NCBI GenBank assembly: GCA_963796455.1
Contig: CAWCLO010000010.1
Location: forward strand, 640,001-704,000
Reading direction: 5' to 3'
DNA: 64,000 nt
DNA from: Candidatus Sulfomarinibacteraceae bacterium
Lineage (GTDB): Bacteria > Acidobacteriota > Thermoanaerobaculia > Thermoanaerobaculales > Sulfomarinibacteraceae
In this document: in pieces, positions 2,118-59,374 of the stretch
Numbering within the stretch: the stretch's first letter is position 1
Layout: the number at the start of each line of letters is the position of its first letter
Position numbers and translations under genes: made by a program
The notes under the pieces: generated by a model
Told to the model about the DNA's origin: nothing
The model's database searches: none
Seen by the model: only the letters and a program-made list of their open reading frames with translations

Positions 2118-2397
2118 AGATCACTGCTGTCCAAAACAGAACGTCACCTGAAACTTCCCACCTGACAACAAGTGTTTTACGGGTTGGTTTTTGGCATATC
2201 CGGTTCGCGGTTGCCCCGTGTCCGCGTCCGTGTCCGTGCCCGAATTGCAGCGGCAGCGACAGTGTCCAGGGTGCAGGGACAGCGACAGGAGGCAGCGTCA
2301 GCGGCAGGGATCAGCGAACAGGGAGCAGCGACAGGGAACAGCGGTCAGGAGTCCAGTCGGCGAAATGGCCACCTCCGGGTCGTTCAAAAGAAGGGGT

Positions 2398-2468
2398 AGC
2401 CGGTGGGCGGCCGATGTCAAGGACAGGCCGGGTGCAGGGCATCCTTGACATCGGCCGCCACACCGGCT
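2398..2468. other. Long hairpin upstream of the four-helix-bundle gene
   Basis: GGCGGCCGATGTCAAGGA (2406-2423) pairs perfectly with 2442-2459; extended 8 bp by 2398-2405/2461-2468 after a 1-nt bulge. Confidence 0.85.
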
Positions 2469-2502
2469 TGCGGGTAAGGGCATGAACGACCCGGAGGTGA
2501 CC

Positions 2503-2856
2503 ATGTCCAACACCGCCACGAACACCAACCTCGTTGCCCACTCGAAAGCCCTCGAAGCAGCAGGAATCGCGATCAAACTCGTGATGAGAGTTCCAGCTCC
2601 GCTGAAGTCGATAGCCGATCAGGTGATCCGGTCGGCAAGTTCGGTCCCTGCGAAGCTGGCAGAAGGGCACGGCCGAGTTGGTAGAGACCGGTCGAATCAC
2701 TGGAGAATCGCCTACGCCTCGGCGAAAGAGGTCGACAGCCACTTGCAGCTCCTCGCCCACGCCGGGGCGATCAGCCCGAACGGAGCCAGTGAAGCGATGA
2801 ACGCCTTCGATCAGGTCCGTGCCATGACATGGCGGCTGTTGAATCCGAAAATTTGA
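2503..2856 (+). CDS. Four helix bundle protein (TIGR02436 / 23S rRNA IVP / Avd-like family)
   Basis: DQVIRSASSVPAKLAEGHGR...IAYASAKE matches the family pattern DQxxRAxxSIxxNIAEGxGR...IAxGSxxE; GGAGG RBS at 2493-2497. Confidence 0.85.
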   Translation: MSNTATNTNLVAHSKALEAAGIAIKLVMRVPAPLKSIADQVIRSASSVPAKLAEGHGRVGRDRSNHWRIAYASAKEVDSHLQLLAHAGAISPNGASEAMNAFDQVRAMTWRLLNPKI

Positions 2857-3055
2857 GCGCTGTTACCCGTCGCTGCTGTTGAGAGCTGATCGCTGACCCT
2901 GACAATCGTTCGCTGACGCTGTCCGCCGTTCCCCGGCCCCGGTCGCTGTCAGAGACTCTGTCTTGGACAAGAGTGGATAAAGAAACAGAGTGAAAAGTTC
3001 AGGGTTCAGACAGGAATTGAGGCTCTACCCTAGAGCCTGAGTCCTCCACCGGCGA

Positions 3056-3562
3056 CTACGCCAGGAGTCGCCATCCAATGGCCAGGACCGCAGCGGCGAA
3101 GTAACCGGCGGCGAGGTCGTCGGCGACGATCCCGATGCCGCCGGGAAACTTCTCGAAGAGCCGGATCGGCCAGGGTTTGACCACATCGAAGAAGCGGAAA
3201 AGAAAAAACCCGGCGGTGGCAAAAACCGCCAGTTCGAGGTGGGTTGTCAGCGCGACAAAGGGCAGGGCCACCAGATAGGTCAACCACTGGCCCGCGGCTT
3301 CGTCGACAACGATCGGCCGCGGATCCTCGACCCCACGGCGCTGGGCCTCGATTTCCGCCGCCCATGTGCCGACGGCAGCGGTCAAAAAAAGCCCGATCGC
3401 TGTGATCACGATCCTGATCGAGGTGAGGGGCAGCGCCGCGCAGATCGCCCACCACAAAAGGGCCGGAGGCAGCGAGCCGACGGTTGTTCCGGGGGCCGGC
3501 AGCCGGTCTCCGAGACCGGCGAATGTCGCGATGGCGTGTGCGAGCTTCGAGTTGTTGGTCAT
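3056..3562 (-). CDS. pgpA: Phosphatidylglycerophosphatase A
   Basis: PAPGTTVGSL, DPRPIVVDEAAG, FRFFDVVKPWPI, GGIGIVADDLAAG. Confidence 0.92.
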   Translation of the reverse strand: MTNNSKLAHAIATFAGLGDRLPAPGTTVGSLPPALLWWAICAALPLTSIRIVITAIGLFLTAAVGTWAAEIEAQRRGVEDPRPIVVDEAAGQWLTYLVALPFVALTTHLELAVFATAGFFLFRFFDVVKPWPIRLFEKFPGGIGIVADDLAAGYFAAAVLAIGWRLLA

Positions 3563-4971
3563 GATTCGCCTCCGGTCAGGAGTTCGAGGAGTTTCTTGTG
3601 GAATTCTCCAAAATTGCCCGACGAGCAGCCTATCACCACATCGTTGGCCTCGAGCAATGGGTACAGAATATCTGCGGCAGCGTCGTCGGCGCCGGGCGCC
3701 AGGCACTGGACGCCTGCCGCGGCCAGGGACGTGACGATCTCCTTTCGATCGAGCGCCTCGCCCTCACCGAGCCGGGCCTGGTGGAAGGCCGGTGCGATCA
3801 GAGCCACATCGGCGTGCGAAAGGACTTCGGTATAGCTTGTTTGAGAGGATTTTCGGGCTGCGGTCAGCGAGCGCGGCTCGAAGGCGATGATCAAGCGCCG
3901 GTCGGGCCATCGTTGCCGCGCGGCATCGATCGTCACCATCAGGGCGGTCGGGTGGTGAGCAAAATCATCGACCACGATCACCCCGGCCCCTTCGCCGACA
4001 ACCTCCATGCGTCGTGCGACTCCCGGAAAGAGCCGCATGGCGGCAGCCGCGTCCACCGGGTTGACCCCCGACAGGATGGCTGCGGTGATGGCCATCGCGG
4101 CGTTTTGCAGATTGTGGAGCCCGGGCAACTCGAGTTCGAGTTCGAGTGTCTGATTACGCCACTGGAGCTCCGCGATGCTCTTGTCCGTCAGGCCCTGCCA
4201 CGATCGCAGGTGAAGATCACAGTCTCCAGTCGGGCCGACCATGATCACCGGAGCCATGGCGTCCCGGCTGGCGGCGACGGCACCTTCACTCCACGCGTTG
4301 ACCACGACAGCGCCGACCCCCGGAACCAGCGAGGCGCCGGCACGAAAGGCGGTCAGCACGGCGTCGAGGTTGGGGTAGAGATCGGCGTGGTCGAATTCCA
4401 CCGGTCCGATGAGAAAGAGGTGCGGGCGATAGTGGAGAAATTTGGCGCCCCGATCGAAGAAGGCGGAGTTGTACTCGTCTCCTTCGATCACCAGATGTGG
4501 GCCGCGGCCGAGGCGAAAGCCCCGCGGATTCCAGCGCGGCAAACCACCGACAAGATAGCTGGGGTCGGCGCCGGTGTGTTCGAGAATCCAAGCCAGCATC
4601 GCCGAGGTCGTGGTCTTGCCATGGGTACCGGCGACCACCAGGCCGTCGCGACCGTGTGCCAGGACATAGTGCGCCACGGCTTCGGCCTGTGAGAGATGGG
4701 GCATGCCCCGGGAGATCACCGCCTCGACCTCGGGATTTGACCGCGGGACGGCGTTGCCGATGATGACCCGGTCGATCTCCGCCGGCATCCGGGCTGGGTC
4801 GAAACCGAGACGGACCTGGATGCCGGCTTCTTGCAAAATAGTGCTCATCGGCGGGTAGAGATGAGCGTCAACCCCCTCGACCCGGTGGCCCATTTCGGAC
4901 AGGAGGCCGGCGAGAGGGGCCATTGCGGTGCCGCCGATAGGAAGAAAATAAAGGGACTCTTTTCTCGTCAT
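3559..4971 (-). CDS. mpl: Murein peptide ligase Mpl (MurC family)
   Basis: IGGTAM, GTHGKTTT, EGDEYNSAFFDRGAKFLHY, DDFAHHPTA and EPRS are Mpl-type rather than MurC-type motifs. Confidence 0.8.
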   Translation of the reverse strand: MTRKESLYFLPIGGTAMAPLAGLLSEMGHRVEGVDAHLYPPMSTILQEAGIQVRLGFDPARMPAEIDRVIIGNAVPRSNPEVEAVISRGMPHLSQAEAVAHYVLAHGRDGLVVAGTHGKTTTSAMLAWILEHTGADPSYLVGGLPRWNPRGFRLGRGPHLVIEGDEYNSAFFDRGAKFLHYRPHLFLIGPVEFDHADLYPNLDAVLTAFRAGASLVPGVGAVVVNAWSEGAVAASRDAMAPVIMVGPTGDCDLHLRSWQGLTDKSIAELQWRNQTLELELELPGLHNLQNAAMAITAAILSGVNPVDAAAAMRLFPGVARRMEVVGEGAGVIVVDDFAHHPTALMVTIDAARQRWPDRRLIIAFEPRSLTAARKSSQTSYTEVLSHADVALIAPAFHQARLGEGEALDRKEIVTSLAAAGVQCLAPGADDAAADILYPLLEANDVVIGCSSGNFGEFHKKLLELLTGGES

Positions 4972-5105
4972 GGCTGATCGAAACCGCACTCAGGGTGTCC
5001 TGGTTGGTATAAGTCCTGCAAAAATGCGCCCCCTGTTGTTGCGGGTCGTGCAACCCGCTCTTAAGATTGTCCCTGTTTGCTAGGAAGATGACAAGGAGGC
5101 TCTCA

Positions 5106-6134
5106 ATGAAGAAAACGCGATCCCTTTTTCTGATTGCCACGGCGATCGTGCTGGTGATTGGATTCAGCGCCGCCGTATCTGAAGCGGCTGATGGACCTAA
5201 ACTGACCGTTCCCGAGTTGCTCAAGGACATGGGTAAGGTGCCCCAGGGAGAGACCCTGGACGTCAATTTCGAAATGGTCAATGAGGGCGACGAGACCCTC
5301 GAAGTCAAGGCCGTTCGCCCGACCTGCGGGTGTACCGTTGCCGACTTCGATCGCGAGATCGCACCCGGCAAGACCGGTTTGATCAAGGCCAAGCTGGACA
5401 CCCGCGATTTCTCCGGGCCGATTTCCAAATCAATTCTGGTGATGACCAACGATCCGGTGAATCCGACCGTGACATTGGTGATCAAGACCGTCGTCCATCC
5501 CTATGTCGAGGTGCTGCCGAGAGCGATGGTCCGTTTCAATGCCGTGCAGCACGAGCCGATGGAGCAGAAACTGACGGTGGTCCCCGGCGATGACGTCGAG
5601 GATTTCAAGGTCACCGATGTCACGAGTAGCGTGCCCTTCCTGGTCGCGAGTATTCGGCCCCTGCCCAAGGACGAATTGCTCGCTGGCAAGCCATCGCCAC
5701 AGTATGAGATTTCACTTTCGATGACGGATGATGCACCGGTGGGCCCGGTCAACGCCGTTCTCGAAGTCCAGAGCAATCACCCCAAAGCGAAGAGGGTTCC
5801 GGTCAAGGTCTTTGGTGTTGTGCGTTCGCTGCTGCACGTCACGCCCTCGCAGGTTCAGTTTGGTTCGGTGGCGGCGAAGAAGCAGCCGGGCCGCAACCTG
5901 ATTCTCGTGAACAACCGCACCGGCGGGGTACCGATCAAGCTCACCGGAGCAAGCGTCAACGACCCGGCATTTCAAGCCGAGATCGTGACGATCGAAGACG
6001 GACGGCGTTATCAGATCACCGTGACCATCAATGCAGATGCCAATCCGGGACCGCGAGACGCTGTTTTGACGCTGAAGACGAGCGATTCCGAGTACCCGCA
6101 GCTCGAGGTGCCGGTGCGGGCGAATATCAGCTGA
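5106..6134 (+). CDS. Secreted DUF1573-like Ig-fold repeat protein
   Basis: Signal peptide; NEGDETLEV..VRPTCGCT...IAPGKTG motif; three beta-sandwich repeats. Confidence 0.7.
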   Translation: MKKTRSLFLIATAIVLVIGFSAAVSEAADGPKLTVPELLKDMGKVPQGETLDVNFEMVNEGDETLEVKAVRPTCGCTVADFDREIAPGKTGLIKAKLDTRDFSGPISKSILVMTNDPVNPTVTLVIKTVVHPYVEVLPRAMVRFNAVQHEPMEQKLTVVPGDDVEDFKVTDVTSSVPFLVASIRPLPKDELLAGKPSPQYEISLSMTDDAPVGPVNAVLEVQSNHPKAKRVPVKVFGVVRSLLHVTPSQVQFGSVAAKKQPGRNLILVNNRTGGVPIKLTGASVNDPAFQAEIVTIEDGRRYQITVTINADANPGPRDAVLTLKTSDSEYPQLEVPVRANIS

Positions 6135-6160
6135 AAGTTCTGAATCGAGGACACGAGACC

Positions 6161-6194
6161 CGGGGGGCGTTGCATTCGGCAGCGCCCTCCGTTT
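6161..6194 (+). terminator. Probable intrinsic terminator
   Basis: 13-bp stem CGGGGGGCGTTGC/GCAGCGCCCTCCG followed by a short TTT tract. Confidence 0.45.
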
Positions 6195-6323
6195 ACTGGT
6201 TGAGAGTCCAGGGTCAATCGACAAGCCGCCACCCGGTCTCAACCCTGACTCTTGAACCCTGACCAGAAAGTGCTGACTCGAAGGTCTGATGTTCGGGCCC
6301 GAGAGAACGATAGGAAATACCCC

Positions 6324-7385
6324 GTGCTGCGAACCCTCGGCATCGAAACATCGTGTGATGAATCCGCCGTTGCCGTCCTCGACGGCGATGGCCGGGTCCT
6401 GGTGCACCTTCTTTCGAGCCAGATCGAGGCCCATGCGCCTTTCGGTGGCGTGGTGCCGGAGTTGGCCTCCCGAGAGCATCTCAAGGCCCTCCCCCTACTG
6501 GTGGAAGAGGCCCTCGATGCAGCGGGAGCCTCACCCGAAATGGTGGCCGTGACCGCTGGGCCGGGTTTGATCGGAGCCTTGTTGGTCGGTGTTCGGTTTG
6601 CCGCAGCATTCGCTTGGGGTCGCGGTCTCCCTCTGGTGGCTGTCGATCACCTCGACGGTCACCTGGTGTCGCCGCTTTTGAGTCTGGATGGTGAGCCGGC
6701 GCGAACCGAGCCGAAACGAATGCTTGCTCTGGTCGCCTCCGGCGGCCATTCGAGCTGGTATCTCATCAACGACGGCGAGCGCCGGCTTCTCGGCCGCACC
6801 CGCGATGACGCTGCGGGTGAGAGTTTCGACAAGGTGGCGCAGGTGCTCGGGCTCGGCTATCCGGGCGGCCCGATCATGGACCGGCTGGCGCGATCCGGGG
6901 ATCCGGCTGCGGTGGCTCTGCCGAGCCCGAGCATCAAGGATGCTCCCTATGATTTTTCCTTCTCCGGGCTCAAATCAGCAGCGATCCGTTGGATACGCAG
7001 CAATGATCTCCCGGGAGCCGGAGAAACGTGTCCGGAGGTCATCGATCTGGCGGCATCCTTTGAGACTGCCGTGGTCGATCAGCTGTTGCGCCCCCTGCCC
7101 GAGTTGGCCGAACAACACCGGCCACTGGCGGTGGCGGCATCCGGTGGGGTTGCCGCCAACAGCCTGCTGAGGCGACGCCTGGTCGCGTGGGGTGAGGCAA
7201 ATGGGGTCGAGGTCATGCTCCCGGCACGGCCGTTGACCACCGACAATGGTGTCATGATCGCCCATGCCGGACAGCTGGCACGGCGACGGGGTCGTGAAGA
7301 CGATCCGCGACGATTGGATGCACGAGCTCGAGAGGTCTGGCAACCACCGGGAATGCGAAAAAAGATGTTGCCGATCGATGCTTGA
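6324..7385 (+). CDS. tsaD: tRNA N6-adenosine threonylcarbamoyltransferase TsaD
   Basis: LGIETSCDE, GGVVPELASREH, GPGLIGAL, HLDGH, TRDDAAGESFDK, FSFSGLKSA, TDNGVMIA. Confidence 0.95.
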   Translation: MLRTLGIETSCDESAVAVLDGDGRVLVHLLSSQIEAHAPFGGVVPELASREHLKALPLLVEEALDAAGASPEMVAVTAGPGLIGALLVGVRFAAAFAWGRGLPLVAVDHLDGHLVSPLLSLDGEPARTEPKRMLALVASGGHSSWYLINDGERRLLGRTRDDAAGESFDKVAQVLGLGYPGGPIMDRLARSGDPAAVALPSPSIKDAPYDFSFSGLKSAAIRWIRSNDLPGAGETCPEVIDLAASFETAVVDQLLRPLPELAEQHRPLAVAASGGVAANSLLRRRLVAWGEANGVEVMLPARPLTTDNGVMIAHAGQLARRRGREDDPRRLDARAREVWQPPGMRKKMLPIDA

Positions 7386-7440
7386 TGAACGGACCGGGTA
7401 GAATTCGCAGGGCCCGGTTTTTGAAAACGGAGGATGTTGA

Positions 7441-8133
7441 ATGAAGAAATCCGTAGCGCGTGAATATTACGAGGCCATTCTGGTGGCCTTTATCCTCGCG
7501 CTCTTCGTGCGGACCTTTGTGTTCGAGAATTTCAAGATCCCATCGGGTTCGATGGAGGACAATCTGCTGATCGGCGATCACCTGGTTGTCAACAAGTATG
7601 TTTTTGCCGACAATGCGGACTCGCTGTTGCACCGACTCTTTCCCTATCGCAGCCCGGAACGCGGAGATGTGGTGGTCTTCAAGTATCCCGAAGACACCCG
7701 GAGGGATTTCATCAAGCGTTGCGTGGCGGTGGCCGGCGACACGGTCGAAATCAAACGCAAACAACTTTTTATCAACGGCGAACCTCAGACCGAACCGCTG
7801 GTGGTTCACAAGGACCCACGAATCTTCGATGACAATCCCTCTGCGGGCGTTTCGTCAAGAGTGCGCGACAATTTCGGGCCGTTTACCGTCCCGGATCAAA
7901 CGATATTCTGTATGGGCGACAATCGGGACAATTCACTTGATTCCCGTTTCTGGGGGCCGGTGCCGCTGAACTATGTCAAAGGCCGGGCGGTTTTGATCTA
8001 CTGGTCCTATGAGGCCGGCCGCAACGACTGGCAATGGCGTGGCTTCGGTCATCGACTCAAGCAATTGGCCGGTGTTTTCTTCAATTTCTTCACCAAGACC
8101 CGCTGGGAGCGTGGCCTTCGGTTGATTCATTGA
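7441..8133 (+). CDS. lepB: Signal peptidase I
   Basis: IPSGSM, FIKRC, MGDNRDNSLDSRFWG. Confidence 0.95.
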   Translation: MKKSVAREYYEAILVAFILALFVRTFVFENFKIPSGSMEDNLLIGDHLVVNKYVFADNADSLLHRLFPYRSPERGDVVVFKYPEDTRRDFIKRCVAVAGDTVEIKRKQLFINGEPQTEPLVVHKDPRIFDDNPSAGVSSRVRDNFGPFTVPDQTIFCMGDNRDNSLDSRFWGPVPLNYVKGRAVLIYWSYEAGRNDWQWRGFGHRLKQLAGVFFNFFTKTRWERGLRLIH

Positions 8134-8199
8134 GCCGCTGAGTCTGAGTGGGATTCTGATACGATCGCAGTACAGGTCGGAGATCATGGAGGTTGCTGC

Positions 8200-8574
8200 A
8201 TGAAATCGTGGCGATATCAGCGCGGTGATGTTCCCGTCGGTTGTTTGGTCGGCGGAATTGTTGGGTTGATCGTGGTGATGATCGCGATCAAGGCGGCACC
8301 GGTGATGCTCAATGTCGGAGAGCTCGACAAAGAAATTTCGAACCTTGCGGATCGAGCCAATCGACGCGAGTATAACGACAAGCGGATAACCAACGACATC
8401 ATCAAAAAGGCCGAAGCGCTCGATCTTCCGGTGACCAAAAATGACATCAAGATCAAACGAACGTCGAATCGAATCAAGATCACCGTGACCTATACGAAAC
8501 CGATCAAATTTCCCGGCCACACCTATATGTGGAACAAGGTCCACGAAAAAGAGCGACCATTGTTTGACGCCTGA
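8200..8574 (+). CDS. Single-pass membrane protein, DUF4845-like
   Basis: QRG followed by an N-terminal TM helix; position after lepB is typical of DUF4845. Confidence 0.5.
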   Translation: MKSWRYQRGDVPVGCLVGGIVGLIVVMIAIKAAPVMLNVGELDKEISNLADRANRREYNDKRITNDIIKKAEALDLPVTKNDIKIKRTSNRIKITVTYTKPIKFPGHTYMWNKVHEKERPLFDA

Positions 8575-8593
8575 TCGGGGCGCCGGCCGTCGA

Positions 8594-9304
8594 TCAGGCC
8601 GGGGACCCCATCTCCTCGAGGATCGACTCAACCGCCTCGATCGGATGCGGTGAACGTGTGATCGGGCGCCCGATGACCAGGATGTTCGACCCGGCTTGAA
8701 TCGCCTCCGCCGGGGTGACCACCCGCCGCTGATCGTCGGCATCACTTTGGGCGGGTCGGATTCCCGGGGTCACGATCACGAATCGATCGCCGCAGAGGCG
8801 TCGGATCACCGCCGCTTCGTGGGCAGAAGAAACCACTCCGTCGACACCGCCATCGCGGGCCAACAGGGCCAGCCGTCCGGCCAGTTGTTCCGGTCGTTGT
8901 TTCCATCCGATTTCGTTGAGCGTTGTCTGGTCCAGGCTGGTGAGGACGGTCACCGCAACGACCTGAGTCGAAACCCCGGCTGACCCGGCTCGAACACCCT
9001 CCGTCGCAGCTTCAATCATGGCGGGCCCGCCGGATGCATGAATCGTGATCATCGCGGCGCCGGCAGCAGCACAATTCGTGGACGCGCGTCGCACCGTGGC
9101 CGGGATATCGTGAAGCTTGAGGTCGAGAAAGACCCGGGCGCCGGTCTCCGCCACCTCACCGACCAGATTGGGGCCGTGGGCCACAAAGGCCTCGAGCCCG
9201 ATCTTGAGCCAACCGACGTGACCCGCGAGGTCGCGGGCCGTCGAGAGAATCCAGTCGCGGTCGCTTCCATCCAGCGCGACACAGAGTGATTGCCGGTCTG
9301 CCAT
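8594..9304 (-). CDS. pyrF: Orotidine-5'-phosphate decarboxylase
   Basis: VALD, KIGLE, FLDLKLHDIPATV, VTVLTS, TPGIRP, VIGRPI. Confidence 0.95.
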   Translation of the reverse strand: MADRQSLCVALDGSDRDWILSTARDLAGHVGWLKIGLEAFVAHGPNLVGEVAETGARVFLDLKLHDIPATVRRASTNCAAAGAAMITIHASGGPAMIEAATEGVRAGSAGVSTQVVAVTVLTSLDQTTLNEIGWKQRPEQLAGRLALLARDGGVDGVVSSAHEAAVIRRLCGDRFVIVTPGIRPAQSDADDQRRVVTPAEAIQAGSNILVIGRPITRSPHPIEAVESILEEMGSPA

Positions 9305-9480
9305 TCTTATCGCCCCCCAAAACAGTCGTTGTCCGCTCGGCATCATACCGGGACCGGCGACATCGTGAGGAGATCAAAGCACCAAGAACCCTCTTTATGG
9401 TCGCTCAGAAGGAGCCGCGGTGGTTTCGCCGTCACTGGGCGCAGCGCACCAAGAGCCTATAACGCGGTACCATTCTGTTC

Positions 9481-11070: not shown

Positions 11071-11108
11071 CCAATTGTCCGTGCCCGGAGATTCACGCTA
11101 AGCTGATC

Positions 11109-16037: not shown

Positions 16038-16147
16038 ATTTGGGATTTGGGATTTGGGATTTCGAATGTTCGTCCACCGGGCAGGAACCGGAAGCCATCA
16101 AAAGTGAACAAATTCGAAATTCGAAATTCGAATTCCGAAATCTGAAA
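16038..16147. repeat. Inverted heptamer arrays ATTTGGG/ATTTCGA ... TCGAAAT
   Basis: ATTTGGG x3 plus ATTTCGA (16038-16065); CAAATTCGAAATTCGAAATTCGAATTCCGAAATCTGAAA (16109-16147). Confidence 0.85.
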
Positions 16148-16150
16148 CCC

Positions 16151-32494: not shown

Positions 32495-32599
32495 TTCGGA
32501 TTTCGGATTTCGGATTTCGGATTTGAGTCCCCCTGGCGCCGGCGGACAGGGGGGGGGTGGTCGGGAAATTCGAAATTCGAAATTCGAAATTCGAATTTG
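32495..32599. repeat. Inverted heptamer arrays TTCGGAT x4 ... GAAATTC x4
   Basis: Perfect arrays at 32495-32522 and 32565-32592, plus GAATTTG. Confidence 0.9.
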
Positions 32600-33341: not shown

Positions 33342-33456
33342 TTTCGAGTTAGTTTTGATGTTTGAGTTATGAGTTTTGAGTTGAGGACTCAGCGCTCCTT
33401 TCTCGCCGAAGGGACAGGTGATAACTCAAACCTCAAACCTCAAAACTCAAAACTGA
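33342..33456. repeat. Inverted heptamer arrays (TTTTGAG-type ... CTCAAAM-type)
   Basis: TTTGAGTTATGAGTTTTGAGTTGAG versus ATAACTCAAACCTCAAACCTCAAAACTCAAAACT. Confidence 0.85.
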
Positions 33457-46032: not shown

Positions 46033-46035
46033 CTT

Positions 46036-50547: not shown

Positions 50548-50571
50548 GTCGAAGGAACCATCCCATCTCAC

Positions 50572-50630: not shown

Positions 50631-50685
50631 TCTCCGGACGATTGTCGTTTCGAAGCCCGTGAGTCGGAGTGGGCCTTGCCGTGTC

Positions 50686-50709
50686 AACCGCGGCCCCCCG
50701 GCCTTCGTC
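50686..50709 (+). promoter_or_regulatory. Possible autoregulatory ECF-sigma promoter
   Basis: AAC (50686-50688)-N17-CGTC (50706-50709) just before the ECF gene. Confidence 0.35.
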
Positions 50710-50717
50710 GTACTAAT

Positions 50718-51787: not shown

Positions 51788-51809
51788 GCGGGCCAGAGCG
51801 GAGGTCAAG

Positions 51810-52301: not shown

Positions 52302-52324
52302 GGTCGCGAGCCGATGATCGAACC

Positions 52325-52349
52325 ACGGGCCCTTCGGGGCCCGTTTTTT
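52325..52349 (+). terminator. Intrinsic terminator
   Basis: ACGGGCCC-TTCG-GGGCCCGT followed by TTTTT. Confidence 0.85.
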
Positions 52350-52378
52350 CAACCAGGGCTCGATGTTCGACGGTGGAT

Positions 52379-52645
52379 CACCGCTGTCCAAAACACAGCT
52401 TACAGCGGCAGTGTTCAGCGACGGCGACAGTGACCAGCGACCGGGAACAGCGACAGAGGACAGCGGCGGCGGCAGGGGACAGCGATCAGGAGTCCGGTCG
52501 GCGAGTTCGGTCCCCGCGAACCAGGCGAAAGGCGACGGCCGAGTCTGTTCCCCGCCCCTGACCCTGATAACCGTCGCTGATATCTGTCGCTGTTGACTGG
52601 CCCTGCCGCTGACTGCTTTTCGCTGACCCTGTCTGCCGTTCTCCA
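52379..52645 (+). repeat. Gene-less copy B of the 2122-2975 element family
   Basis: Left end CACCGCTGTCCAAAACAC (16/18 to 2122-2139); CAGCGR arm; core CAGCGATCAGGAGTCCGGTCGGCGA at 52480-52504; complementary YCGCTG arm. Confidence 0.75.
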
Positions 52646-52687
52646 CCCCTGATATCGTGGCGAAGCGTATCGACTGATCGCGCCACC

Positions 52688-52715
52688 GAGCATCCAGCAT
52701 CCAGCATCGAGGATC
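52688..52715. repeat. Heptamer array SAGSATC x4
   Basis: GAGCATC CAGCATC CAGCATC GAGGATC. Confidence 0.7.
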
Positions 52716-52773
52716 GGGTGGTCGGTCGGCCTTTCCACGGCACCGTCCAAAGGGCGAAACGGGGTGGAACTCC

Positions 52774-52802
52774 TTGACAGCAAACGCCCTGTCTGTTACA
52801 AA
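52774..52802 (+). promoter_or_regulatory. Putative sigma-70 promoter of the rplU operon
   Basis: TTGACA-N17-TACAAA with TG extension. Confidence 0.55.
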
Positions 52803-52834
52803 TACGACCCCTTTGTGCAGGGGAGAGGTGTGGA

Positions 52835-53158
52835 ATGACTGATTATGCAGTAGTTGAACATGGCGGCAAACAGTACCGGGTCAGCCCCGGCGATGAGCTG
52901 CTGGTCGAACGAACCGTGCCTGACCTCAAAAAGGGCGATGCCCTGGTCTTTGATCGGGTCATGTTGATCAGCAAGGGCAAAGGTGTCCAGGTCGGACAGC
53001 CTTTGGTCGATGGCGCATCCGTCAAGAGTCAGATCCTGGCTGCGGAGCGGGGCGACAAGATCATTGTTTTCAAGAAAAAACGCCGCAAGGGTTATAAGCG
53101 GAAGAACGGTCATCGGCAGGACTATTATCGGGTCCGGGTCGAGGCCATTGAGGCGTAG
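52835..53158 (+). CDS. rplU: 50S ribosomal protein L21
   Basis: [30 protein letters not shown]. Confidence 0.97.
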
Positions 53159-53166
53159 GGGGATCT

Positions 53167-53421
53167 ATGGCGCACAAAAAAGGACAGGGCTCGAGCCGCA
53201 ACGGTCGTGATTCCAATTCCCAGCGTCTCGGTACCAAGGTTGGTGACGGCCAGACGGTGACATCAGGCACCATCCTGGTGCGGCAGCGTGGCACGCATTT
53301 CAAGCCCGGCGACAACGTCAAAAGAGGTCGCGACGACACTCTTTTTGCGACCTCGCACGGTCAGGTCAAATTTTTGAACCGCGGTCGGCTCGGTCGGTTC
53401 ATCAGCATCGTTGCCAACTGA
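53167..53421 (+). CDS. rpmA: 50S ribosomal protein L27
   Basis: [24 protein letters not shown]. Confidence 0.97.
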
Positions 53422-53499
53422 CACCCCAATCAGATGAAGACGGCACGAGTAGAGCTCGCACGCCAGGCTGCGTGGTGGGCGGAGTGCCGTTGACGAACC

Positions 53500-54513
53500 A
53501 TGCTTGTTGACTCAGTTCGGATCACGGTGCGCGCCGGCAACGGCGGCAATGGCTGCGTGTCATTTCGGCGCGAGAAATTCGTCCCCCGGGGTGGTCCGAA
53601 TGGTGGTGACGGCGGTCGCGGCGGCGACGTCATCCTGGTGGTCGACGAAGGCATCAATACCCTGCTCCATCTCCACCATCGGCGCCACGTCCGTGCCGAG
53701 GCCGGCAAGCACGGTCAGGGTTCCAACAAGACCGGCGCCGGCGGCGATGATGTCTGCGTTCAGGTTCCGCCCGGGACGATCGTGCGCGATGCATCCACCG
53801 GTGAATCCATGGGTGATCTGGTGAATCAAGGCCAAGAACTGGTGGTGGCGAAGGGCGGCAAGGGAGGGCGCGGCAATACCCGTTTTTCTTCGTCGACCAA
53901 TCGGGTCCCCCGCAAAGCGGAGGATGGTGCGCCGGGCGAGAATCTCGATCTCGATCTCGAACTCAAGCTTCTGGCCGATGTCGGCCTGGTCGGGCTGCCC
54001 AATGCCGGAAAATCGACCCTGTTGTCGCGGTTGTCGGCCGCTCGCCCCAAGATTGCCGATTATCCCTTCACGACTCTCGAGCCCCATCTCGGCGTGGTTT
54101 CCGCGCCGGATGACGAGTTGCGAACCCTCGTGATGGCGGATATTCCGGGCATCATCGAGGGCGCTTCCGACGGGGCCGGGCTGGGCGCACAGTTCTTGCG
54201 CCATATCGAGAGGTGTCCGGTGCTCGCCCACCTGGTGGATCTCTCATCTGAGGAGCCCCTCACCGAACGGGTTGATACTATTCGAGCCGAACTCGAGGCG
54301 CACCCGGCTCCGCTCGAGCAGCGGCCGTGGTTGCTGATTGGCACCAAGCTCGACACTGTTGGCGATCGTGAGGCAGCTCTTGCGGAGCTTGAAAAAGTGG
54401 CGGCTGCCAATGGGGCATCATCGATGGCGATTTCGGCGGTGACCGGCGAATCCGTCGACCGGCTCCTGGGTCGACTCTTCGTGTTGGTTGAGGAGGTTCG
54501 GAACCGTTCATGA
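53500..54513 (+). CDS. obgE: GTPase Obg/CgtA
   Basis: SFRREKFVPRGGPNGGDGG, GLPNAGKST, YPFTTL, DIPG, TKLD. Confidence 0.96.
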   Translation: MLVDSVRITVRAGNGGNGCVSFRREKFVPRGGPNGGDGGRGGDVILVVDEGINTLLHLHHRRHVRAEAGKHGQGSNKTGAGGDDVCVQVPPGTIVRDASTGESMGDLVNQGQELVVAKGGKGGRGNTRFSSSTNRVPRKAEDGAPGENLDLDLELKLLADVGLVGLPNAGKSTLLSRLSAARPKIADYPFTTLEPHLGVVSAPDDELRTLVMADIPGIIEGASDGAGLGAQFLRHIERCPVLAHLVDLSSEEPLTERVDTIRAELEAHPAPLEQRPWLLIGTKLDTVGDREAALAELEKVAAANGASSMAISAVTGESVDRLLGRLFVLVEEVRNRS

Positions 54514-55178
54514 CAGAACGAATTGCAATCTACGGCGGAAGTTTTGATCCATTCCACCTCGGGCATCTGGTCCCGACGGTCCGTGCCCAGGAGACCTTTC
54601 AATTCCAGGCGGTGTATTTCGTGCCCGCGGGTTCGCCGCCGCACAAGCACTCGGCCCCGTTGACCCCGGTCACCCACCGGTTGGCGATGGTGGCAATGGC
54701 TACCCTGCCGTACGAGAATTTCTATACCTCCGACGACGAGGTCTTTGCACCGCAACCCACCTATTCGGTGGAGACCGTTCGCCGCTTTCAGACCAGATTT
54801 CCGGACAGCACGCTCTATTTCATTCTCGGTTCCGACTCCTTTTCTCAGATCCAGACCTGGGAGTTGTGGGAAGAACTTGTTGAATCGGTTCACCTGGTTG
54901 TCCTCCACCGCGCCCATATGTGGGGAGACGAACTGGCCGCTCGAGTGCCCAAACGGCTGCTGCCTCGCCTGCGGGTGGTGGAGCCCTTCGAAGAGGTTCC
55001 GGACCCCGAAGACCTTACGGTCTACCTGCTCAATCACGAGCCCTTCCCGATCTCCGGAACCTCGATCCGGGCCCGCGAGAGTCGCGGCCTTCCGATCCGT
55101 GAGTTGGTACCGCATGAGGTCCACACCTATATTGAGAAGTACGGCCTCTATGGACCCAATCCAAAGGTGGTGGACTGA
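54510..55178 (+). CDS. nadD: Nicotinate-nucleotide adenylyltransferase
   Basis: GGSFDPFHLGH, PPHK, ILGSD, ISGTSIR, YIEKYGLY. Confidence 0.92.
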   Translation: MTERIAIYGGSFDPFHLGHLVPTVRAQETFQFQAVYFVPAGSPPHKHSAPLTPVTHRLAMVAMATLPYENFYTSDDEVFAPQPTYSVETVRRFQTRFPDSTLYFILGSDSFSQIQTWELWEELVESVHLVVLHRAHMWGDELAARVPKRLLPRLRVVEPFEEVPDPEDLTVYLLNHEPFPISGTSIRARESRGLPIRELVPHEVHTYIEKYGLYGPNPKVVD

Positions 55179-55558
55179 TGTCGGAAACCGATTTTTTGGC
55201 TCGTCTCCAGACGGCGGCCCGCGCCGCAGCTGACAAGAAAGCATTTCAAGTCATCGGTCTGGAGGTCGCCGGTTTGACCTCCTACACCGACCACCTGCTC
55301 ATCTGTTCGGGCGCCAGTGACCGCCAGGTGGCGGCCATCGCCGATGCGATCCAACGACAGCTCAGGGACGAGGGCCTTCGGCCGAACCACGTTGAAGGGG
55401 TGTCCCGTGCCGAGTGGGTCCTGATCGACTATGGTGATTTCGTTGTGCACGTCTTTACCGAAGAATGTCGTGCCTACTACGGCCTCGACGCTTTGTGGGG
55501 GGATGCGCAAAAACTCGACGCAGAGGCGCTCGGAATCGGGGAAGACGAGTCGTCGTGA
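55178..55558 (+). CDS. rsfS: Ribosome silencing factor
   Basis: DKKA, SDRQVAAIAD, WVLIDYGDFVVHVF, YYGLDALW. Confidence 0.94.
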   Translation: MSETDFLARLQTAARAAADKKAFQVIGLEVAGLTSYTDHLLICSGASDRQVAAIADAIQRQLRDEGLRPNHVEGVSRAEWVLIDYGDFVVHVFTEECRAYYGLDALWGDAQKLDAEALGIGEDESS

Positions 55559-56037
55559 AGATCAGGACGCTGTGGGTCGGACGCCGGTCGGCGAGCCCCT
55601 ACGAAAAGCAGATCGAAACCTATCGTCAGCGGGTCCAGCGTCGATGGCCCGCGGAAGATATCGCCATCAAAAGCGTCGCGGGCGGTCGCGACAAGGATCC
55701 CCGGCGGGCACTCGGCCTCGAGGCCGAGGCCATGCTGCAAAACCATAAGGCCGGTTGGCGACTGGTGGCGCTCGATGAGCGAGGCACCCAACGTGACAGC
55801 ACGGCTTTTGCGCGGTGGATCCATGAATTCGCCGAAACCGGTGGCGCGGGTCTGGTCTTTGCCATTGGCAGCGACCTCGGTCTCGACCCCCGCGTGCTTG
55901 AAGCATCTGATGAGAGTATCTCGTTGAGTCAAATGACTTTACCTCATCTGCTGGCGCGTCTTGTTTTGTGGGAACAGCTTTTTCGTGCCACCAGCATCCT
56001 CTCAGGTGGTGCGTATCATCGGGGTTTCGTACAATAG
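55555..56037 (+). CDS. rlmH: 23S rRNA m3Psi1915 methyltransferase
   Basis: ALDERG, FAIGSDLG, SLSQMTLPHLLARLVLWEQLFRA, YH. Confidence 0.9.
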   Translation: MKIRTLWVGRRSASPYEKQIETYRQRVQRRWPAEDIAIKSVAGGRDKDPRRALGLEAEAMLQNHKAGWRLVALDERGTQRDSTAFARWIHEFAETGGAGLVFAIGSDLGLDPRVLEASDESISLSQMTLPHLLARLVLWEQLFRATSILSGGAYHRGFVQ

Positions 56038-56112
56038 GGGGCGGTCACTTACGATTGAAAACAGCCGCGAGATATTGGTGGCCGCTGGCCCCCGATTCGG
56101 AGGATCGTCATC

Positions 56113-56466
56113 ATGAACAAAAGACAACGCGAAAAATATCGCAAACAGCTCTTGGCAAAAAGAGAAGAACTTCTGGAACGCGTCAAGGCCGCACGGACGA
56201 GCGAGAAAGAGGGATCGGGCAAAGAAGCGCCGGACCTCGGGGATCGTGCCTTGTCGACCGTTATTCGGGATCTGAGCTACCAGCTGACGGCCGGCGAACG
56301 GGATATCGTGCGCCGGGTCGATCTTGCCCTCGATCGCATTGAGGAGGGGAACTACGGGACCTGCGTCGAGTGCGGAAAGAAAGTCCTGCTCGGTCGCCTG
56401 GACGCGGTTCCGTGGGCCCGCCACTGCATCGATTGTCAGGAATTGCAGGACCGCGGAGAAATCTGA
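56113..56466 (+). CDS. DksA/TraR-family C4 zinc-finger regulator
   Basis: DLGDRA (DxxDxA) coiled-coil tip; YGTCVECG...RLDAVPWARHCIDCQ. Confidence 0.88.
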   Translation: MNKRQREKYRKQLLAKREELLERVKAARTSEKEGSGKEAPDLGDRALSTVIRDLSYQLTAGERDIVRRVDLALDRIEEGNYGTCVECGKKVLLGRLDAVPWARHCIDCQELQDRGEI

Positions 56467-56493
56467 GGGATTGCGGTACTCCGCGGCCTGAAC

Positions 56494-57669
56494 ATGGCCC
56501 ACGTCCACCTTATTGCGTCGCCTGACGACTATCTCCTCAACGAAGAGATCAAACAGATCCTGCCAAGGGTTTGCAGCGAACTCGGTGGAGTGGAGCCAGA
56601 ATACATGCCCGACGACACCAGCCCCGAGTTGCTGGCGGTCGAGTTGTGTTCGCCCTCCCTTTTTGCGCCCCAGAGAGTCCTCGTGATCAGCGAGGCGCGG
56701 CAGTGGGTCGACGTGCCGTCGCCGAACAAGCAATATCGGCCACCGCCCGGGACCGGCCCGGCGGAAATCGATGCTTCGGCTGTGACCCATGTGCTCGATG
56801 AGGGACTGTCGGACGACATCGCGTTGATCCTTCGGGTGCAGTGCCAGGCCAAACCCAAAGGTGATCTGGTGGCCGCGATCGAAAAATCGGGGCATCTTCA
56901 CTGGCAACCGGTGCCGCCACCGCCAAAGCCCTGGGAAGATGCGGTGGTTTCCAAGGAACAGGTGGCGGTTCTGCGCGCTGTGATCGCCCGGGAAGCGCCC
57001 TCGGTAGGTTTTGCCCCTGCGGCGGAACGATTGCTCTTCGAACGCCTCGGTTTTGCGCCCCGTCTGCTCGCCTCCGAGGTCGGCAAACTTGCGGCGGCGG
57101 CAAGCGGCGACGAGGTCGACGTGGATCTTGTGCGCCGATTGAGCTTTCCACGGGAGGGTTCCCTCGAAGAGGCATTTGACGCCCTGCTCGATCGAAGGGT
57201 GGCACCGGTCCTTGAAATTCTTTCTGCCGCAGAGGGTGGTCTTCCGGTGCGCGATCTCCAGGGTCGATTGATGACCGAAAAGGCGGTCTATTTTGCCCTC
57301 GCCGGACAGGCCACGAAGGTCTTCCAACAACTGCTGTATCTCCGTCTGCTCGGCGAGCGAGAGGGCTTTCTCGCTGAGATGGCTCCGGACCGGACAGCGG
57401 CAGGTGCGTGGTATCCGAAGCGATTCAAAGACGGGATCGGACCCAGACTCCAGGAAGCCCTCAAGACCGATGCTCCCTCCCCTCTCGTGCCGCCGGGAGG
57501 CAGATCGCCGACGGTTTTTGCGCTCGGAAAGCTCTTTCGGGCCGGTGGTCGCTACACCACCGATGAGCTCCGCGCTTCGCTTGTCGATCTCGGGGCGCTG
57601 GAGGCGGACCTGCGTGGCGACGCCAAGTTGGAAGCGCTGTCGGTCTGGTTTTCGGGCGTTCTGAGCTGA
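56494..57669 (+). CDS. holA: DNA polymerase III delta subunit-like protein (divergent)
   Basis: HLIASPDDYL, SLFAPQRVLVI, LASEVGKL and DADL-like EADLRG elements. Confidence 0.6.
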   Translation: MAHVHLIASPDDYLLNEEIKQILPRVCSELGGVEPEYMPDDTSPELLAVELCSPSLFAPQRVLVISEARQWVDVPSPNKQYRPPPGTGPAEIDASAVTHVLDEGLSDDIALILRVQCQAKPKGDLVAAIEKSGHLHWQPVPPPPKPWEDAVVSKEQVAVLRAVIAREAPSVGFAPAAERLLFERLGFAPRLLASEVGKLAAAASGDEVDVDLVRRLSFPREGSLEEAFDALLDRRVAPVLEILSAAEGGLPVRDLQGRLMTEKAVYFALAGQATKVFQQLLYLRLLGEREGFLAEMAPDRTAAGAWYPKRFKDGIGPRLQEALKTDAPSPLVPPGGRSPTVFALGKLFRAGGRYTTDELRASLVDLGALEADLRGDAKLEALSVWFSGVLS

Positions 57670-57751
57670 TTGGAGCTCGGTGGGCCGTGACGAGGTCCCA
57701 TCACCATCCCGAAATGCGATACGATGAATACCTTCATTCATTGGAGGTCAT

Positions 57752-59038
57752 GTGACGGACAGCGCGCGGGAATCGACCGAGGAGCGCTTGGCGAAGAGCC
57801 AACAACGGGTTCGCCGGCTCGAAGCCGTGGTGGAGGCGAGCCTGATGGTGAACTCCACCCTCGATCTCACGGAACTCGCCGAGCACATCATCGATATCGC
57901 GACCCGTCTGGTCAACGCCGAGCGCGGCTCGCTTTTTCTGGTTGACGGGGAAAGCGGCAGTCTCCAGGCCCTCGTCGCCCAGGGCGTCGCACAGGGTTCC
58001 CTGCGACTGGCGATCGGTGAAGGCATCGTCGGAGCCGTCGCGGCATCCGGTGAGGCGGAGATCCTGGACGACCCTTACGATGATTCCCGTTTCGATCCCA
58101 GCGTCGATCGGGCCACCGGCTTTCAGACCCGCTCGTTGCTGACGGTTCCGGTGCGTGATCGCGACGGGTCTTTGACGGCGGTCCTGCAGTTGCTCAATCA
58201 CGGGGGGGGCGGTTTTTCCCGCGAGGACATCGAGTTTCTGGCTGAACTCGGCGTTCCCTTCGCCATCGCACTGACGACCGTCCGGATGCATGGAGAGATT
58301 GTCGCCAGTGAGCGGCTCGAGCGGGAAATGCGTCTCGCGGCTGAAATTCAGCGCGCCCTGCAACCGGTAGGTCGAGCGACCATTCCCGGTCTCGAAATCG
58401 ATGTCCTGTTCCGACCCAGCCGCCAGGTCGGGGGAGATTACTGGGATGTCATTCCTCTCGGCGAGAACCGGTGGTGGATCGTGGTCGGCGATGTCTCGGG
58501 CAAGGGGGTGGCGGCGGGTCTGGTGGCCTCCAACATCCAGGCATGTCTGTGGAGTCGCCGCAGCGCGCTCGCCCCGCTCAACGAGATCATGGCTGATGTC
58601 AACGATCTGCTCGGGCGCCTGACCCGCGGCCGCAAGTACGCGACCCTCGTCGTGGCGGAGTGGAATGCGGATCGCGAAACCCTCTCCTGGGTCAATGCGG
58701 GCCACCCCCCCCTGCTGCACGAACGAGAGGGAGAGGTGCGCGATTTCGGGGCCACCGGTCGTCCCATCGGTTTGCTCGAGAATCAGCACTACACCCGTGA
58801 TGGTTTTGTTCTCGAGGAGGGCGACACCGTGTTGCTCTATTCCGACGGTGTCCTCGAGGCGGAGGGCGCTACCGATGGTGCCGAGTTCGGTCTCGAGAAT
58901 ATTCGTCGGCACCTGCCCGGAGAGGGCGGGCCCCATGGGGCGGTGGTTCGGATCTCGGAGGCCGTCAACGCCCACCTCGGCGGCAACGATCCCGGGGACG
59001 ACATCACCATGGTGTGTTTTCGCCGATCGCGGGGGTGA
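57752..59038 (+). CDS. GAF plus SpoIIE/PP2C (RsbU-like) phosphatase
   Basis: GAF (GEGIVG..DSRFD..TGFQTRS); VGGDYWD, GDVSGKG, NAGH, YSDG, DDIT. Confidence 0.9.
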   Translation: MTDSARESTEERLAKSQQRVRRLEAVVEASLMVNSTLDLTELAEHIIDIATRLVNAERGSLFLVDGESGSLQALVAQGVAQGSLRLAIGEGIVGAVAASGEAEILDDPYDDSRFDPSVDRATGFQTRSLLTVPVRDRDGSLTAVLQLLNHGGGGFSREDIEFLAELGVPFAIALTTVRMHGEIVASERLEREMRLAAEIQRALQPVGRATIPGLEIDVLFRPSRQVGGDYWDVIPLGENRWWIVVGDVSGKGVAAGLVASNIQACLWSRRSALAPLNEIMADVNDLLGRLTRGRKYATLVVAEWNADRETLSWVNAGHPPLLHEREGEVRDFGATGRPIGLLENQHYTRDGFVLEEGDTVLLYSDGVLEAEGATDGAEFGLENIRRHLPGEGGPHGAVVRISEAVNAHLGGNDPGDDITMVCFRRSRG

Positions 59039-59159
59039 GTTCGAAGACGTCCCCGCATCGGCACGACAACCTGTTTTTTTCGTTGAAAGAGACGCAAAGA
59101 CGCGAAGCACTGCCAAGGTTTTTTCCGGACACGCATCTCCGAGACGATGTTTCTGGCCA

Positions 59160-59374
59160 ATGTTCAGGGACAGCGACAGCGAAAGCAGACAGCGTCGCGA
59201 CAGGAAGTAGTCAGCGTCAGTCCTCAGCGACAGCTTCAGCAATCAGCGAACAGCCTTCACTTCGCCGACTGGACTCCTGATCGCTGAACCCCGCCGCTGC
59301 CGCTGAACCCTGTCGCTGCCGCTGAAATTCGGGATCGGGACAACCGCGAATCGGAAATGGCAAAAACCAACCCG
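59160..59374 (-). repeat. Gene-less copy C of the 2122-2975 element family (reverse orientation)
   Basis: Reverse complement of 59336-59374 matches 2180-2218 at 35/39; reverse complement of 59262-59286 matches 2339-2363 at 24/25; inverted CAGCGR/YCGCTG arms. Confidence 0.8.

What the first reader, a model, noticed from the sequence alone, without database searches (positions are those of the whole stretch)
2180..59374. Three related copies of one repeat-armed element: one with a gene (A) and two empty (B at 52.4 kb, C at 59.2 kb)
Seen: the core CAGCGRTCAGGAGTCCRGTCGGCGA occurs at 2339-2363 (+), 52480-52504 (+) and 59262-59286 (-), with 1-2 mismatches pairwise. A and C also share a 39-bp leader (2180-2218 versus reverse complement of 59336-59374, 35/39) and the junction CCCGAATTKCAGCGGCAGCGACAG. 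A and B share the left end GATCACYGCTGTCCAAAACA (2119 and 52376). In all three, a CAGCGR arm of variable length precedes the core and a complementary arm follows it. Only A has a gene between core and right arm. Inference: this is a dispersed hairpin element whose loop can gain or lose cargo just after a fixed core, which may be a binding, priming or recombination site. The arms vary much more than the core.
Basis: partly seen in the sequence, partly recalled or inferred. Interest (0 to 1): 0.8.

Follow-up and report, generated by a model that had tools for sequence, protein, structure and literature searches.

The report
Hitchhiking gene inside borrowed transposon ends
The three sites are one intact and two deletion-damaged copies of a small element found at about 250 places in this genome, in which a conserved four-helix-bundle gene sits between the ends of an IS4 transposon and is likely moved by a transposase made elsewhere; relatives carry the same gene between the ends of an unrelated transposon family, so the gene appears to hitchhike on whichever jumping element is at hand.

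Summary
The motifs are real, but the family is far larger: 258 loci, 65 with a full gene, 1.8% of the genome. Copy A (2122-2975) has IS4 ends and a 9-bp target duplication (38 of 72 two-ended copies match at 8/9 or better; shuffled mean 8). No matching transposase is in this assembly. Inside lie CAG arrays, a covarying hairpin over the ribosome-binding site, and a TIGR02436 (Avd/S23p-fold) gene with dN/dS 0.145 among 58 mosaic copies. B and C are microhomology deletions, not cargo-free versions: B keeps 40 bp of the gene. The 'core' is not a fixed site: 19 of 58 full copies lack it, and 91 of 100 cores run on into the hairpin. New here: relatives carry the same gene clade between ISL3 ends with 8-bp duplications, others with neither, and IS4 ends carry other cargo in another species. 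Verdict: a non-autonomous IS cassette whose passenger changes vehicles and stays under selection; why is unknown. The scan noted this family (IS4 ends) earlier on other DNA of this genome, and the gene-plus-array design in many genomes.

The parts
2113..2121 (+). left copy of the 9-bp target-site duplication of copy A
   Evidence: 8 of 9 identical to 2976-2984; 9-bp spacing is the only one with direct matches across 72 two-ended copies
   Evidence: first 17 bp identical to the 3' end of autonomous IS4 elements; 42 of 70 bases match the IS4 end of a same-genus genome, L146
2216..2242 (+). short hexamer array
   Evidence: Tandem Repeats Finder, period 6
   Evidence: unit census over full copies: 602 of 670 units are 6 or 7 bp
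2365..2504 (+). long hairpin; its outer stem pairs with the Shine-Dalgarno sequence and start codon of the gene (translation block is predicted)
   Evidence: 12 of 51 pairs with changes on both sides in 17 sequences, 0 of 500 shuffles as high
2482..2856 (+). four-helix-bundle gene, TIGR02436 / PF05635; likely start at 2503 (GGAGGT 4 nt upstream), 117 aa
   Evidence: model pLDDT 91.5; TM about 0.8 to 2GSC, 2RLD and Avd
2857..2945 (+). right array, the same CAG units on the opposite strand
   Evidence: sequence
2959..2975 (+). right terminal repeat = 5' end of the IS4-family IS
2976..2984 (+). right copy of the target-site duplication
52379..52669 (+). copy B: left terminal repeat (52379-52395) with the rest of the IS remnant deleted, left array, core 52480-52504, right array, decayed right end near 52656-52669
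   Evidence: the right end is my reading by eye (9 of 14)
52505..52544 (+). 40-bp remnant of the gene in copy B, joined to the core through an 11-bp near-identity (10 of 11) with gene 2628-2638
59130..59374 (-). copy C: IS remnant 59336-59374 (terminal repeat lost), left array, core 59262-59286, then what reads as the gene's stop codon (59257-59261), right array, decayed right end 59130-59146
   Evidence: the junction through a 7-bp microhomology with the gene end is inferred from gene ends of other copies

Best explanation
The element is a transposase-less cassette with the two ends of an IS4-family insertion sequence around a passenger module (CAG arrays, hairpin, four-helix-bundle gene); it is likely moved in trans by a visiting IS4 transposase, and B and C are likely microhomology-guided deletion relics of it. 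Shown: ends, 9-bp duplications, copy number, deletion junctions, purifying selection, mosaic copies, the same module inside ISL3 ends in relatives. Inferred: (1) an IS4 once lost its transposase gene and took up the module; (2) a DUF4372-DDE transposase, absent from this assembly, cut and pasted it, mostly into heptamer arrays after stop codons; (3) the hairpin silences the gene on read-through RNA and, with the arrays, promotes slippage and deletion, which gives variable arms and 'empty' copies; (4) the protein, predicted to be an Avd-like ring that binds nucleic acid, likely acts on its own CAG arrays and favours the survival or spread of intact copies, which would explain the selection (about 0.35 for this step alone).
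For: Ends: the 17-bp left end closes IS4 elements of 1.34-1.42 kb in several phyla; 7 of 7 ORFs tested are DUF4372 + DDE_Tnp_1, 3 of 3 pass NF033592; 5 of 10 such elements have perfect 9-bp duplications. In this genome 21 of 72 two-ended copies have a perfect and 38 a >=8/9 direct 9-bp flank; shuffled pairing gives 2.0 and 8.0 (max 8 and 19), no other length from 4 to 13 gives any perfect match. A contig of a public run joins a right end to a left end across exactly 9 bases. The element is missing from the orthologous gap in 19 of 19 relatives (site A) and 6 of 6 (site C) where both neighbours were recovered. A gene-less subfamily (77 loci) has duplications too (13 of 22), so the gene is not needed in cis. 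The cognate transposase is in a same-genus genome (G017, 66% identity). ISL3 elements L397 and L401 have the ends that bracket the module in G014, G008, G005, G017, G058, with 8-bp direct flanks (16 of 28 at >=7/8; shuffled mean 6, max 13). Selection: dN/dS 0.145 over 1653 pairs; pN/pS 0.10-0.27 in seven relatives, 2-10 copies each.
Against: No IS4 transposase in this assembly (90.5% complete) nor in G006, which has 71 exact end matches. 34 of 72 two-ended copies have flanks under 8/9, and 40 of 72 sit in period-7 arrays, where a 2-bp duplication would look like a 9-bp one; the non-array cases, A among them, carry the argument. A passive passenger should decay, yet 57 of 58 ungapped full copies are open. 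In G036, G070, G071, G072, 0 of 66 sampled copies have IS4 or ISL3 ends though the gene is amplified there. No exact empty site was seen: the relatives are only 55-62% identical in DapF.
Confidence: 0.72

Rival explanations
1. The inner module moves by itself: the four-helix-bundle protein, with host enzymes, copies the array-hairpin-gene unit to new sites; IS ends are passengers or later additions.
For: Amplification with open frames in genomes with neither known shell: 66 of 66 sampled copies (chosen by best E-value) in four genomes lack IS4 and ISL3 ends, arrays often start at the upstream stop codon, and 23 of 66 have a perfect tandem array against the hairpin, like a tail. Four other PF05635 genes of this genome each sit between their own inverted 6-8-mer arrays with no IS ends seen. 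Private changes are nearer neutral (pN/pS 0.66) than shared ones (0.09-0.20).
Against: Recent copies come with a vehicle: 2 of the 3 near-identical G036 copies share a further pair of ends and 30 of 38 copies in G070-G072 have a shared palindromic repeat within 300 bp downstream. Gene-less copies spread well. The fold has no known catalytic role and no RT is in this assembly. The singleton ratio is inflated by saturation of synonymous classes; close pairs still give 0.13-0.21. Long perfect arrays could be long-read artefacts.
Confidence: 0.15
2. DGR-like or other retro-mobility: an Avd-like ring and a reverse transcriptase copy the element's RNA.
For: Fold like Avd (TM 0.76-0.81); RTs (sizes as for group II introns) in 11 of 25 genomes of the genus; heavy mosaicism among copies.
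Against: No PF00078 match in this genome, the one with most copies; no adenine bias: A 7.3%, C 7.1%, G 7.6%, T 3.1%; terminal inverted repeats with 9-bp duplications point to DDE transposition.
Confidence: 0.05
3. The host keeps the copies: the protein and arrays form a dispersed regulatory system (for example a ring that binds CAG repeats in 3' regions of mRNAs), and IS ends only spread the sites.
For: Open frames persist while target duplications decay (17 of 38 carry a mismatch); sites lie in intergenic gaps; arrays are kept in gene-less copies (66 of 72 keep both).
Against: Positions are not conserved between species; copy number ranges from 0 to over 200 motif hits within one family; one gene copy would do; gene conversion can keep frames open without a benefit per locus.
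Confidence: 0.08
4. One reading: a hairpin element that gains or loses cargo at a fixed core used as binding, priming or recombination site.
For: B and C both break at the end of the core; a gene-less subfamily carries a different hairpin in place of the gene.
Against: 91 of 100 cores continue into the leader hairpin; 19 of 58 full copies lack the core; junctions are scattered and sit on microhomologies; arms do not covary.
Confidence: 0.03

Closest known systems
Mobile insertion cassettes (MIC231; IS4 family, IS231 subgroup), as described in PMC6199540 (passages read)
   Same: Two IS4-family inverted repeats without transposase around a coding passenger, about 850 bp, a conserved IS remnant next to one end, movement in trans expected.
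   Different: Ends of another IS4 group (DUF4372 type, 9-bp duplication); 65 full copies in one chromosome; one passenger clade that also rides in ISL3 ends; passenger flanked by its own arrays and hairpin and under purifying selection among copies.
23S rRNA intervening sequences with an S23p ORF (Coxiella, Leptospira; PMC4990558, passages read)
   Same: Same protein family (PF05635; closest structures 2GSC, 2RLD) within inverted repeats; the paper cites the old idea that the ORF served mobility.
   Different: Not in rRNA; bounded by IS ends with target duplications; degenerate CAG arrays instead of a 28-bp stem; RNase III cleavage untested.
Avd of diversity-generating retroelements (bioRxiv 10.1101/2023.10.23.563531, passages read)
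   Same: Fold (TM 0.76-0.81); Avd is a pentameric, positively charged barrel that binds an RNA element; this protein has 14 K/R against 8 D/E.
   Different: 8-12% identity, no RT beside it or in the assembly, no adenine-biased change.
MITEs / non-autonomous IS derivatives (general knowledge)
   Same: Gene-less subfamily (77 loci) and deletion relics such as B and C behave like this.
   Different: The master form carries an intact, selected gene that is not a transposase.
Heptamer repeat arrays of Xanthomonas and Nostoc (PMC4692102, abstract and outline only)
   Same: Short arrays of 6-7-bp units of variable number in intergenic DNA, often near stop codons.
   Different: Here degenerate CAG units, tied to one gene clade and carried inside IS ends; no G-quadruplex motif.

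Membership tests
Mobile insertion cassette / non-autonomous IS4 derivative | Two inverted repeats, no transposase gene, one or more passenger CDS | tested here: met
   2122-2138 / 2959-2975 around TIGR02436 only
Mobile insertion cassette / non-autonomous IS4 derivative | Ends shared with an autonomous IS4-family element | tested here: met
   same ends around NF033592 transposases, also in same-genus G017
Mobile insertion cassette / non-autonomous IS4 derivative | Target duplication of IS4 length (7-13 bp by subgroup in Table 1 of PMC2266710) | tested here: met
   9 bp; 21 perfect and 38 at >=8/9 of 72, above all 5000 shuffles
Mobile insertion cassette / non-autonomous IS4 derivative | Cognate transposase in the same genome | tested here: not met
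   none in G000, 90.5% complete; close match in 1 of 24 same-genus genomes
Mobile insertion cassette / non-autonomous IS4 derivative | Transposition in trans shown | not testable with these tools
   needs a transposition assay
23S rRNA intervening sequence | S23p / PF05635 ORF | tested here: met
   PF05635 52.7 bits, cut-off 33.8; 2GSC TM 0.82
23S rRNA intervening sequence | Located in an rRNA gene | tested here: not met
   between dapF and pgpA; no Rfam match in the window
23S rRNA intervening sequence | Terminal stem excised by RNase III | not testable with these tools
   arms can pair but do not covary within copies; no RNA data
Diversity-generating retroelement | Reverse transcriptase gene | tested here: not met
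   0 PF00078 matches in G000
Diversity-generating retroelement | Adenine-specific mutagenesis | tested here: not met
   A 7.3%, C 7.1%, G 7.6%, T 3.1% over 58 copies
Diversity-generating retroelement | Avd-like accessory protein | tested here: met
   fold only, E 0.06, 8-12% identity
Diversity-generating retroelement | Template repeat / variable repeat pair | not tested
   not searched for
Cassette-capturing site (integron-like) | Fixed recombination point at which cargo is exchanged | tested here: not met
   scattered microhomology junctions; 91 of 100 cores run into the hairpin
Known structured RNA family (Rfam 15) | Match at gathering score | tested here: not met
   0 matches in the window

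The most novel reading that the evidence does not exclude
The module is a vehicle-independent selfish gene: its Avd-like ring binds the CAG arrays at both ends of the module and thereby raises the transposition or survival of any IS or REP shell that happens to enclose it, so it has been captured and amplified by IS4, ISL3 and at least one more set of ends, while gene-less copies keep the arrays and cheat on the protein in trans. This would give the first function for the S23p/TIGR02436 family and a cause for its inverted short-repeat arrays.
Probability: 0.25. Interest if true: 0.85.

Novelty: new variant of a known kind. Interest (0 to 1): 0.62.

Why it matters
PF05635/TIGR02436 is a large family of unknown function, long suspected of a part in mobility. 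Here about 60 open, selected, recombining copies in one genome, with known ends and a known candidate transposase, make the question directly testable: does the protein or its arrays change the transposition rate of the shell? The same passenger in IS4 ends in some species and ISL3 ends in others shows a gene that changes carriers, which ordinary passenger cassettes are not known to me to do at this scale (own knowledge; six searches found no paper).

Tried and rejected
DGR-type adenine bias: looked likely from the variable last codons, not found over the gene. RT in the genome: none. Rfam: nothing. The one DDE_Tnp_1 gene of this genome has other ends; six Y1_Tnp genes exist, not followed up. 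Covariation between left and right arms: none. A leftward peptide from the mirrored ribosome-binding site: this genome's copies have no ATG there and arm lengths shift frame (by eye). Promoter: TTGACA lies in both arms of the hairpin but I saw no -10 box (by eye; no scan run). Outer heptamer arrays as footprints of the shell: AACGTT arrays are abundant in genomes with 0-1 ISL3 end matches (G013, G015, G087), so they do not depend on it. Metagenome scan for a transposase between the second ends found none in 120 stretches; the ISL3 link came. Sequencing runs: no RNA holder listed; no joint that skips the whole element among those shown (one contig leaves the window at 2118, its further letters were not shown). 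A split of changes into inner and outer tree branches was not obtained; frequency classes and pairwise ratios stand in for it and do not settle selection in cis. Paper searches with no hit; one DOI was not held. Supplements of PMC2266710 (alignments of IS4 ends) were not read, so the IS4 subgroup is not assigned. No complex prediction was sent.
Full report
OBSERVATION. The window is part of a 5.02-Mb, 10-contig assembly, 90.5% complete. Records that share the element's end and inner sequence are titled Candidatus Sulfomarinibacteraceae, so the host is probably of that family. The core occurs 100 times at up to 4 mismatches and never in a base-shuffled genome. A census with five diagnostic segments gives 258 clusters, 92 kb, 1.8% of the genome: 65 with a full gene, 52 with part of it, 141 with none; 77 loci carry a gene-less hairpin cargo. 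Only A, B and C fall in this window.

ANATOMY OF A. 2122-2975, between dapF and pgpA. The outer stem of the hairpin pairs with the Shine-Dalgarno sequence and both possible start codons. In 17 sequences from eight genomes 12 of 51 pairs change on both sides, 0 of 500 shuffles reach this and slid partners give 0-2; the tool warns that related sequences and a structure derived from them favour such a result. The protein folds as four helices (pLDDT 91.5) and matches 2GSC and 2RLD (E 2e-5 to 3e-3, TM about 0.8) and, weakly by E-value, Avd.

THE ENDS ARE IS4 ENDS. In those with enough DNA, ten show a matching inverted end 1.34-1.42 kb away; 7 of 7 enclosed ORFs tested are DUF4372 + DDE_Tnp_1 and 3 of 3 pass NF033592; 5 of the 10 have perfect 9-bp duplications. 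In this genome 72 copies have both ends; direct flanks match only at 9 bp: 21 perfect, 38 at 8/9 or better, against 2.0 and 8.0 for shuffled pairing (max 8 and 19 in 5000). The other 34 match less, from decay or from crossovers between copies. Because 40 of 72 lie in period-7 arrays, non-array cases such as A matter most. A contig of run X3 joins a right end to a left end over 9 bases. No IS4 transposase is in this assembly; among 76 relatives 8 had a match, the closest in G017 (66%); G006, rich in the same ends, had none. So movement in trans is inferred, not shown.

B AND C. B keeps 40 bp of the gene, joined where the core's last 11 bases nearly repeat gene positions 2628-2638. C runs from the core into what reads as the gene's stop codon through a 7-bp microhomology (inferred from gene ends of other copies). 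Of 100 core sites 44 are followed by a full gene, 14 by part, 42 by none (the middle of that output was cut, the totals were shown); 91 continue into the hairpin, and 19 of 58 full copies have no core within 4 mismatches. Left and right arms of one copy share no more k-mers than arms of different copies (38 copies). So the core is an ordinary, less variable part of the array, and empties are deletions. The orthologous gaps lack this element in 19 of 19 relatives at site A and 6 of 6 at site C where both neighbours were found; at site B one of 18 has the same IS4 ends with other cargo. These species are too distant to show an exact empty site.

THE GENE IS UNDER SELECTION. 59 copies gave a full ungapped alignment; one was dropped for an offset, and 57 of the other 58 are open. 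About six more are split by frameshifts and were not counted, so this choice favours intact copies. Pairwise identity is 83-99%, dN/dS 0.145. Linkage falls with distance (r2 0.17 at 1-10 bp, 0.025 beyond 80 bp; 0 of 2000 permutations as strong), so copies are mosaics. No adenine bias. My arithmetic: the decay of the target duplications (about 0.8 mismatch per pair) would, under neutrality, have put a stop into about 21 of 58 genes; one has it. Arrays may mutate faster and gene conversion may repair copies, so this is a hint. Private alleles have pN/pS 0.66 and shared ones 0.09-0.20, the pattern expected if function matters during spread, but synonymous saturation inflates the first figure and close pairs still give 0.13-0.21. 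The gene-less subfamily has duplications as often (13 of 22) as full copies (15 of 28), so the gene is not needed in cis for IS4-type movement.

THE PASSENGER CHANGES VEHICLES. The hairpin motif is found in 69 of 77 genomes of the family, from single hits to 227. Gene matches number 48 in G006, 67 in G058, 31 in G036, 17 in G008, 12 in G014 and 17-36 in five more. In G014, G008, G005, G017 and G058 the module lies between GG...CC ends (23 of the 47 loci sampled from 11 genomes were labelled so) with 8-bp direct flanks (28 two-ended copies: 7 perfect, 16 at 7/8 or better; shuffles 1.4 and 6.0, max 7 and 13). ISL3 transposase loci L397 and L401 have these ends. G000 has no exact match to them, and G000, G006 and G086 hold most IS4-end matches. 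In a tree of 56 proteins (11 of 59 G000 copies; rows with stops left out) the 16 IS4-shelled genes form one branch (98/98). In G036, G070, G071 and G072, 0 of 66 sampled copies have either kind of end; but young copies there tend to have another partner: a third pair of ends in 2 of 3 near-identical G036 copies, a shared palindrome downstream in 30 of 38 copies of the other three. Four further PF05635 genes of G000 sit between their own inverted arrays without IS ends seen. The array-gene module is therefore older than the IS4 shell.

MECHANISM. Most likely a mobile insertion cassette: IS4 ends, moved in trans, carrying a module that other shells have also captured; the hairpin would keep the gene silent on read-through RNA and, with the arrays, invite slippage and deletion (inferred; slippage at hairpins is from my own knowledge). 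The open point is the selection. Avd is a positively charged pentamer that binds an RNA element (bioRxiv 10.1101/2023.10.23.563531, passages), and the Xanthomonas S23p is a pentameric ring (PMC4990558, passages). I take binding to the module's own arrays, to the advantage of intact copies, as the best guess (about 0.35). Self-mobility (0.15), host benefit (0.08) and retro-mobility (0.05) remain.

KNOWN AND NEW. It works like MIC231 (PMC6199540, passages) and meets three of its four testable features; the cognate transposase was not found in the assembly. The 9-bp duplication and CA end fit the range in Table 1 of PMC2266710 (passages); the subgroup is not assigned, the supplements were not read. 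It is not an IVS and not a DGR. Six searches found no paper on this gene-plus-array design or on such a cassette; the library lacks most subscription journals. The scan itself has noted this family on other DNA of this genome and the general design in over 200 genomes; a look-up for the exchange of IS4 and ISL3 shells returned nothing. Verdict: real, a new variant of a known kind; interest 0.62.

Noticed in passing
G000 C4:1278094-1278408, C1:983149-983445, C9:2726-3031, C10:733004-733315: Four other, distant PF05635 genes, each between inverted arrays of its own 8-, 8-, 7- or 6-bp unit; the same units are scattered over the genome.
   Followed up: partly
window 14399, 16038-16141, 17633, 32495-32595, 33351-33454, 52689, 60803, 62038: Many orphan 7- and 8-bp arrays in intergenic gaps, several as inverted pairs.
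   Followed up: no
72 two-ended copies in G000: 40 of 72 insertions sit in period-7 arrays, against 0.3% of random sites and 57 of 508 random AT-N5-AT sites; ISL3-ended copies in relatives sit in AACGTT-type arrays. Both shells are concentrated in pre-existing arrays.
   Followed up: partly
G000, 77 loci, e.g. C1:93045 and C7:103501: A gene-less subfamily in which a small nested hairpin replaces the gene while the last codons, both arrays and the IS4 ends are kept.
   Followed up: partly
L192 (G086), L016-L018: The same IS4 ends enclose a different, palindromic REP-like cargo; 45 exact end matches in G086 with only 7 module motif hits.
   Followed up: partly
L379-L385, L433, L442, L446, L463, L464, L472-L475: Perfect tandem arrays of 6-, 12- or 13-bp units, up to about 25 units of 12-13 bp, abut the left base of the hairpin in genomes without IS4/ISL3 ends; slippage at the hairpin, a tail made on insertion, or a long-read artefact.
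   Followed up: partly
L476, L487 (G036): Two young copies share a third pair of short inverted ends of unknown IS family.
   Followed up: partly
L146 (G017 IS4) and L397 (G083 ISL3): Autonomous IS copies whose flanks are mirror images (inverted heptamer arrays) instead of direct duplications.
   Followed up: no
L429 (G067 C128): Two copies of the gene head to head around one hairpin, a fully palindromic form.
   Followed up: no
dapF-pgpA and upstream of rplU in 24 relatives (L167-L214): The same two gaps hold different small mobile or palindromic elements in nearly every species.
   Followed up: no
G000 C7:291075-292150 region (L001): The genome's only DDE_Tnp_1 gene, 358-aa open frame, with its own inverted ends, next to a fragment that by eye looks like another transposase.
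   Followed up: no
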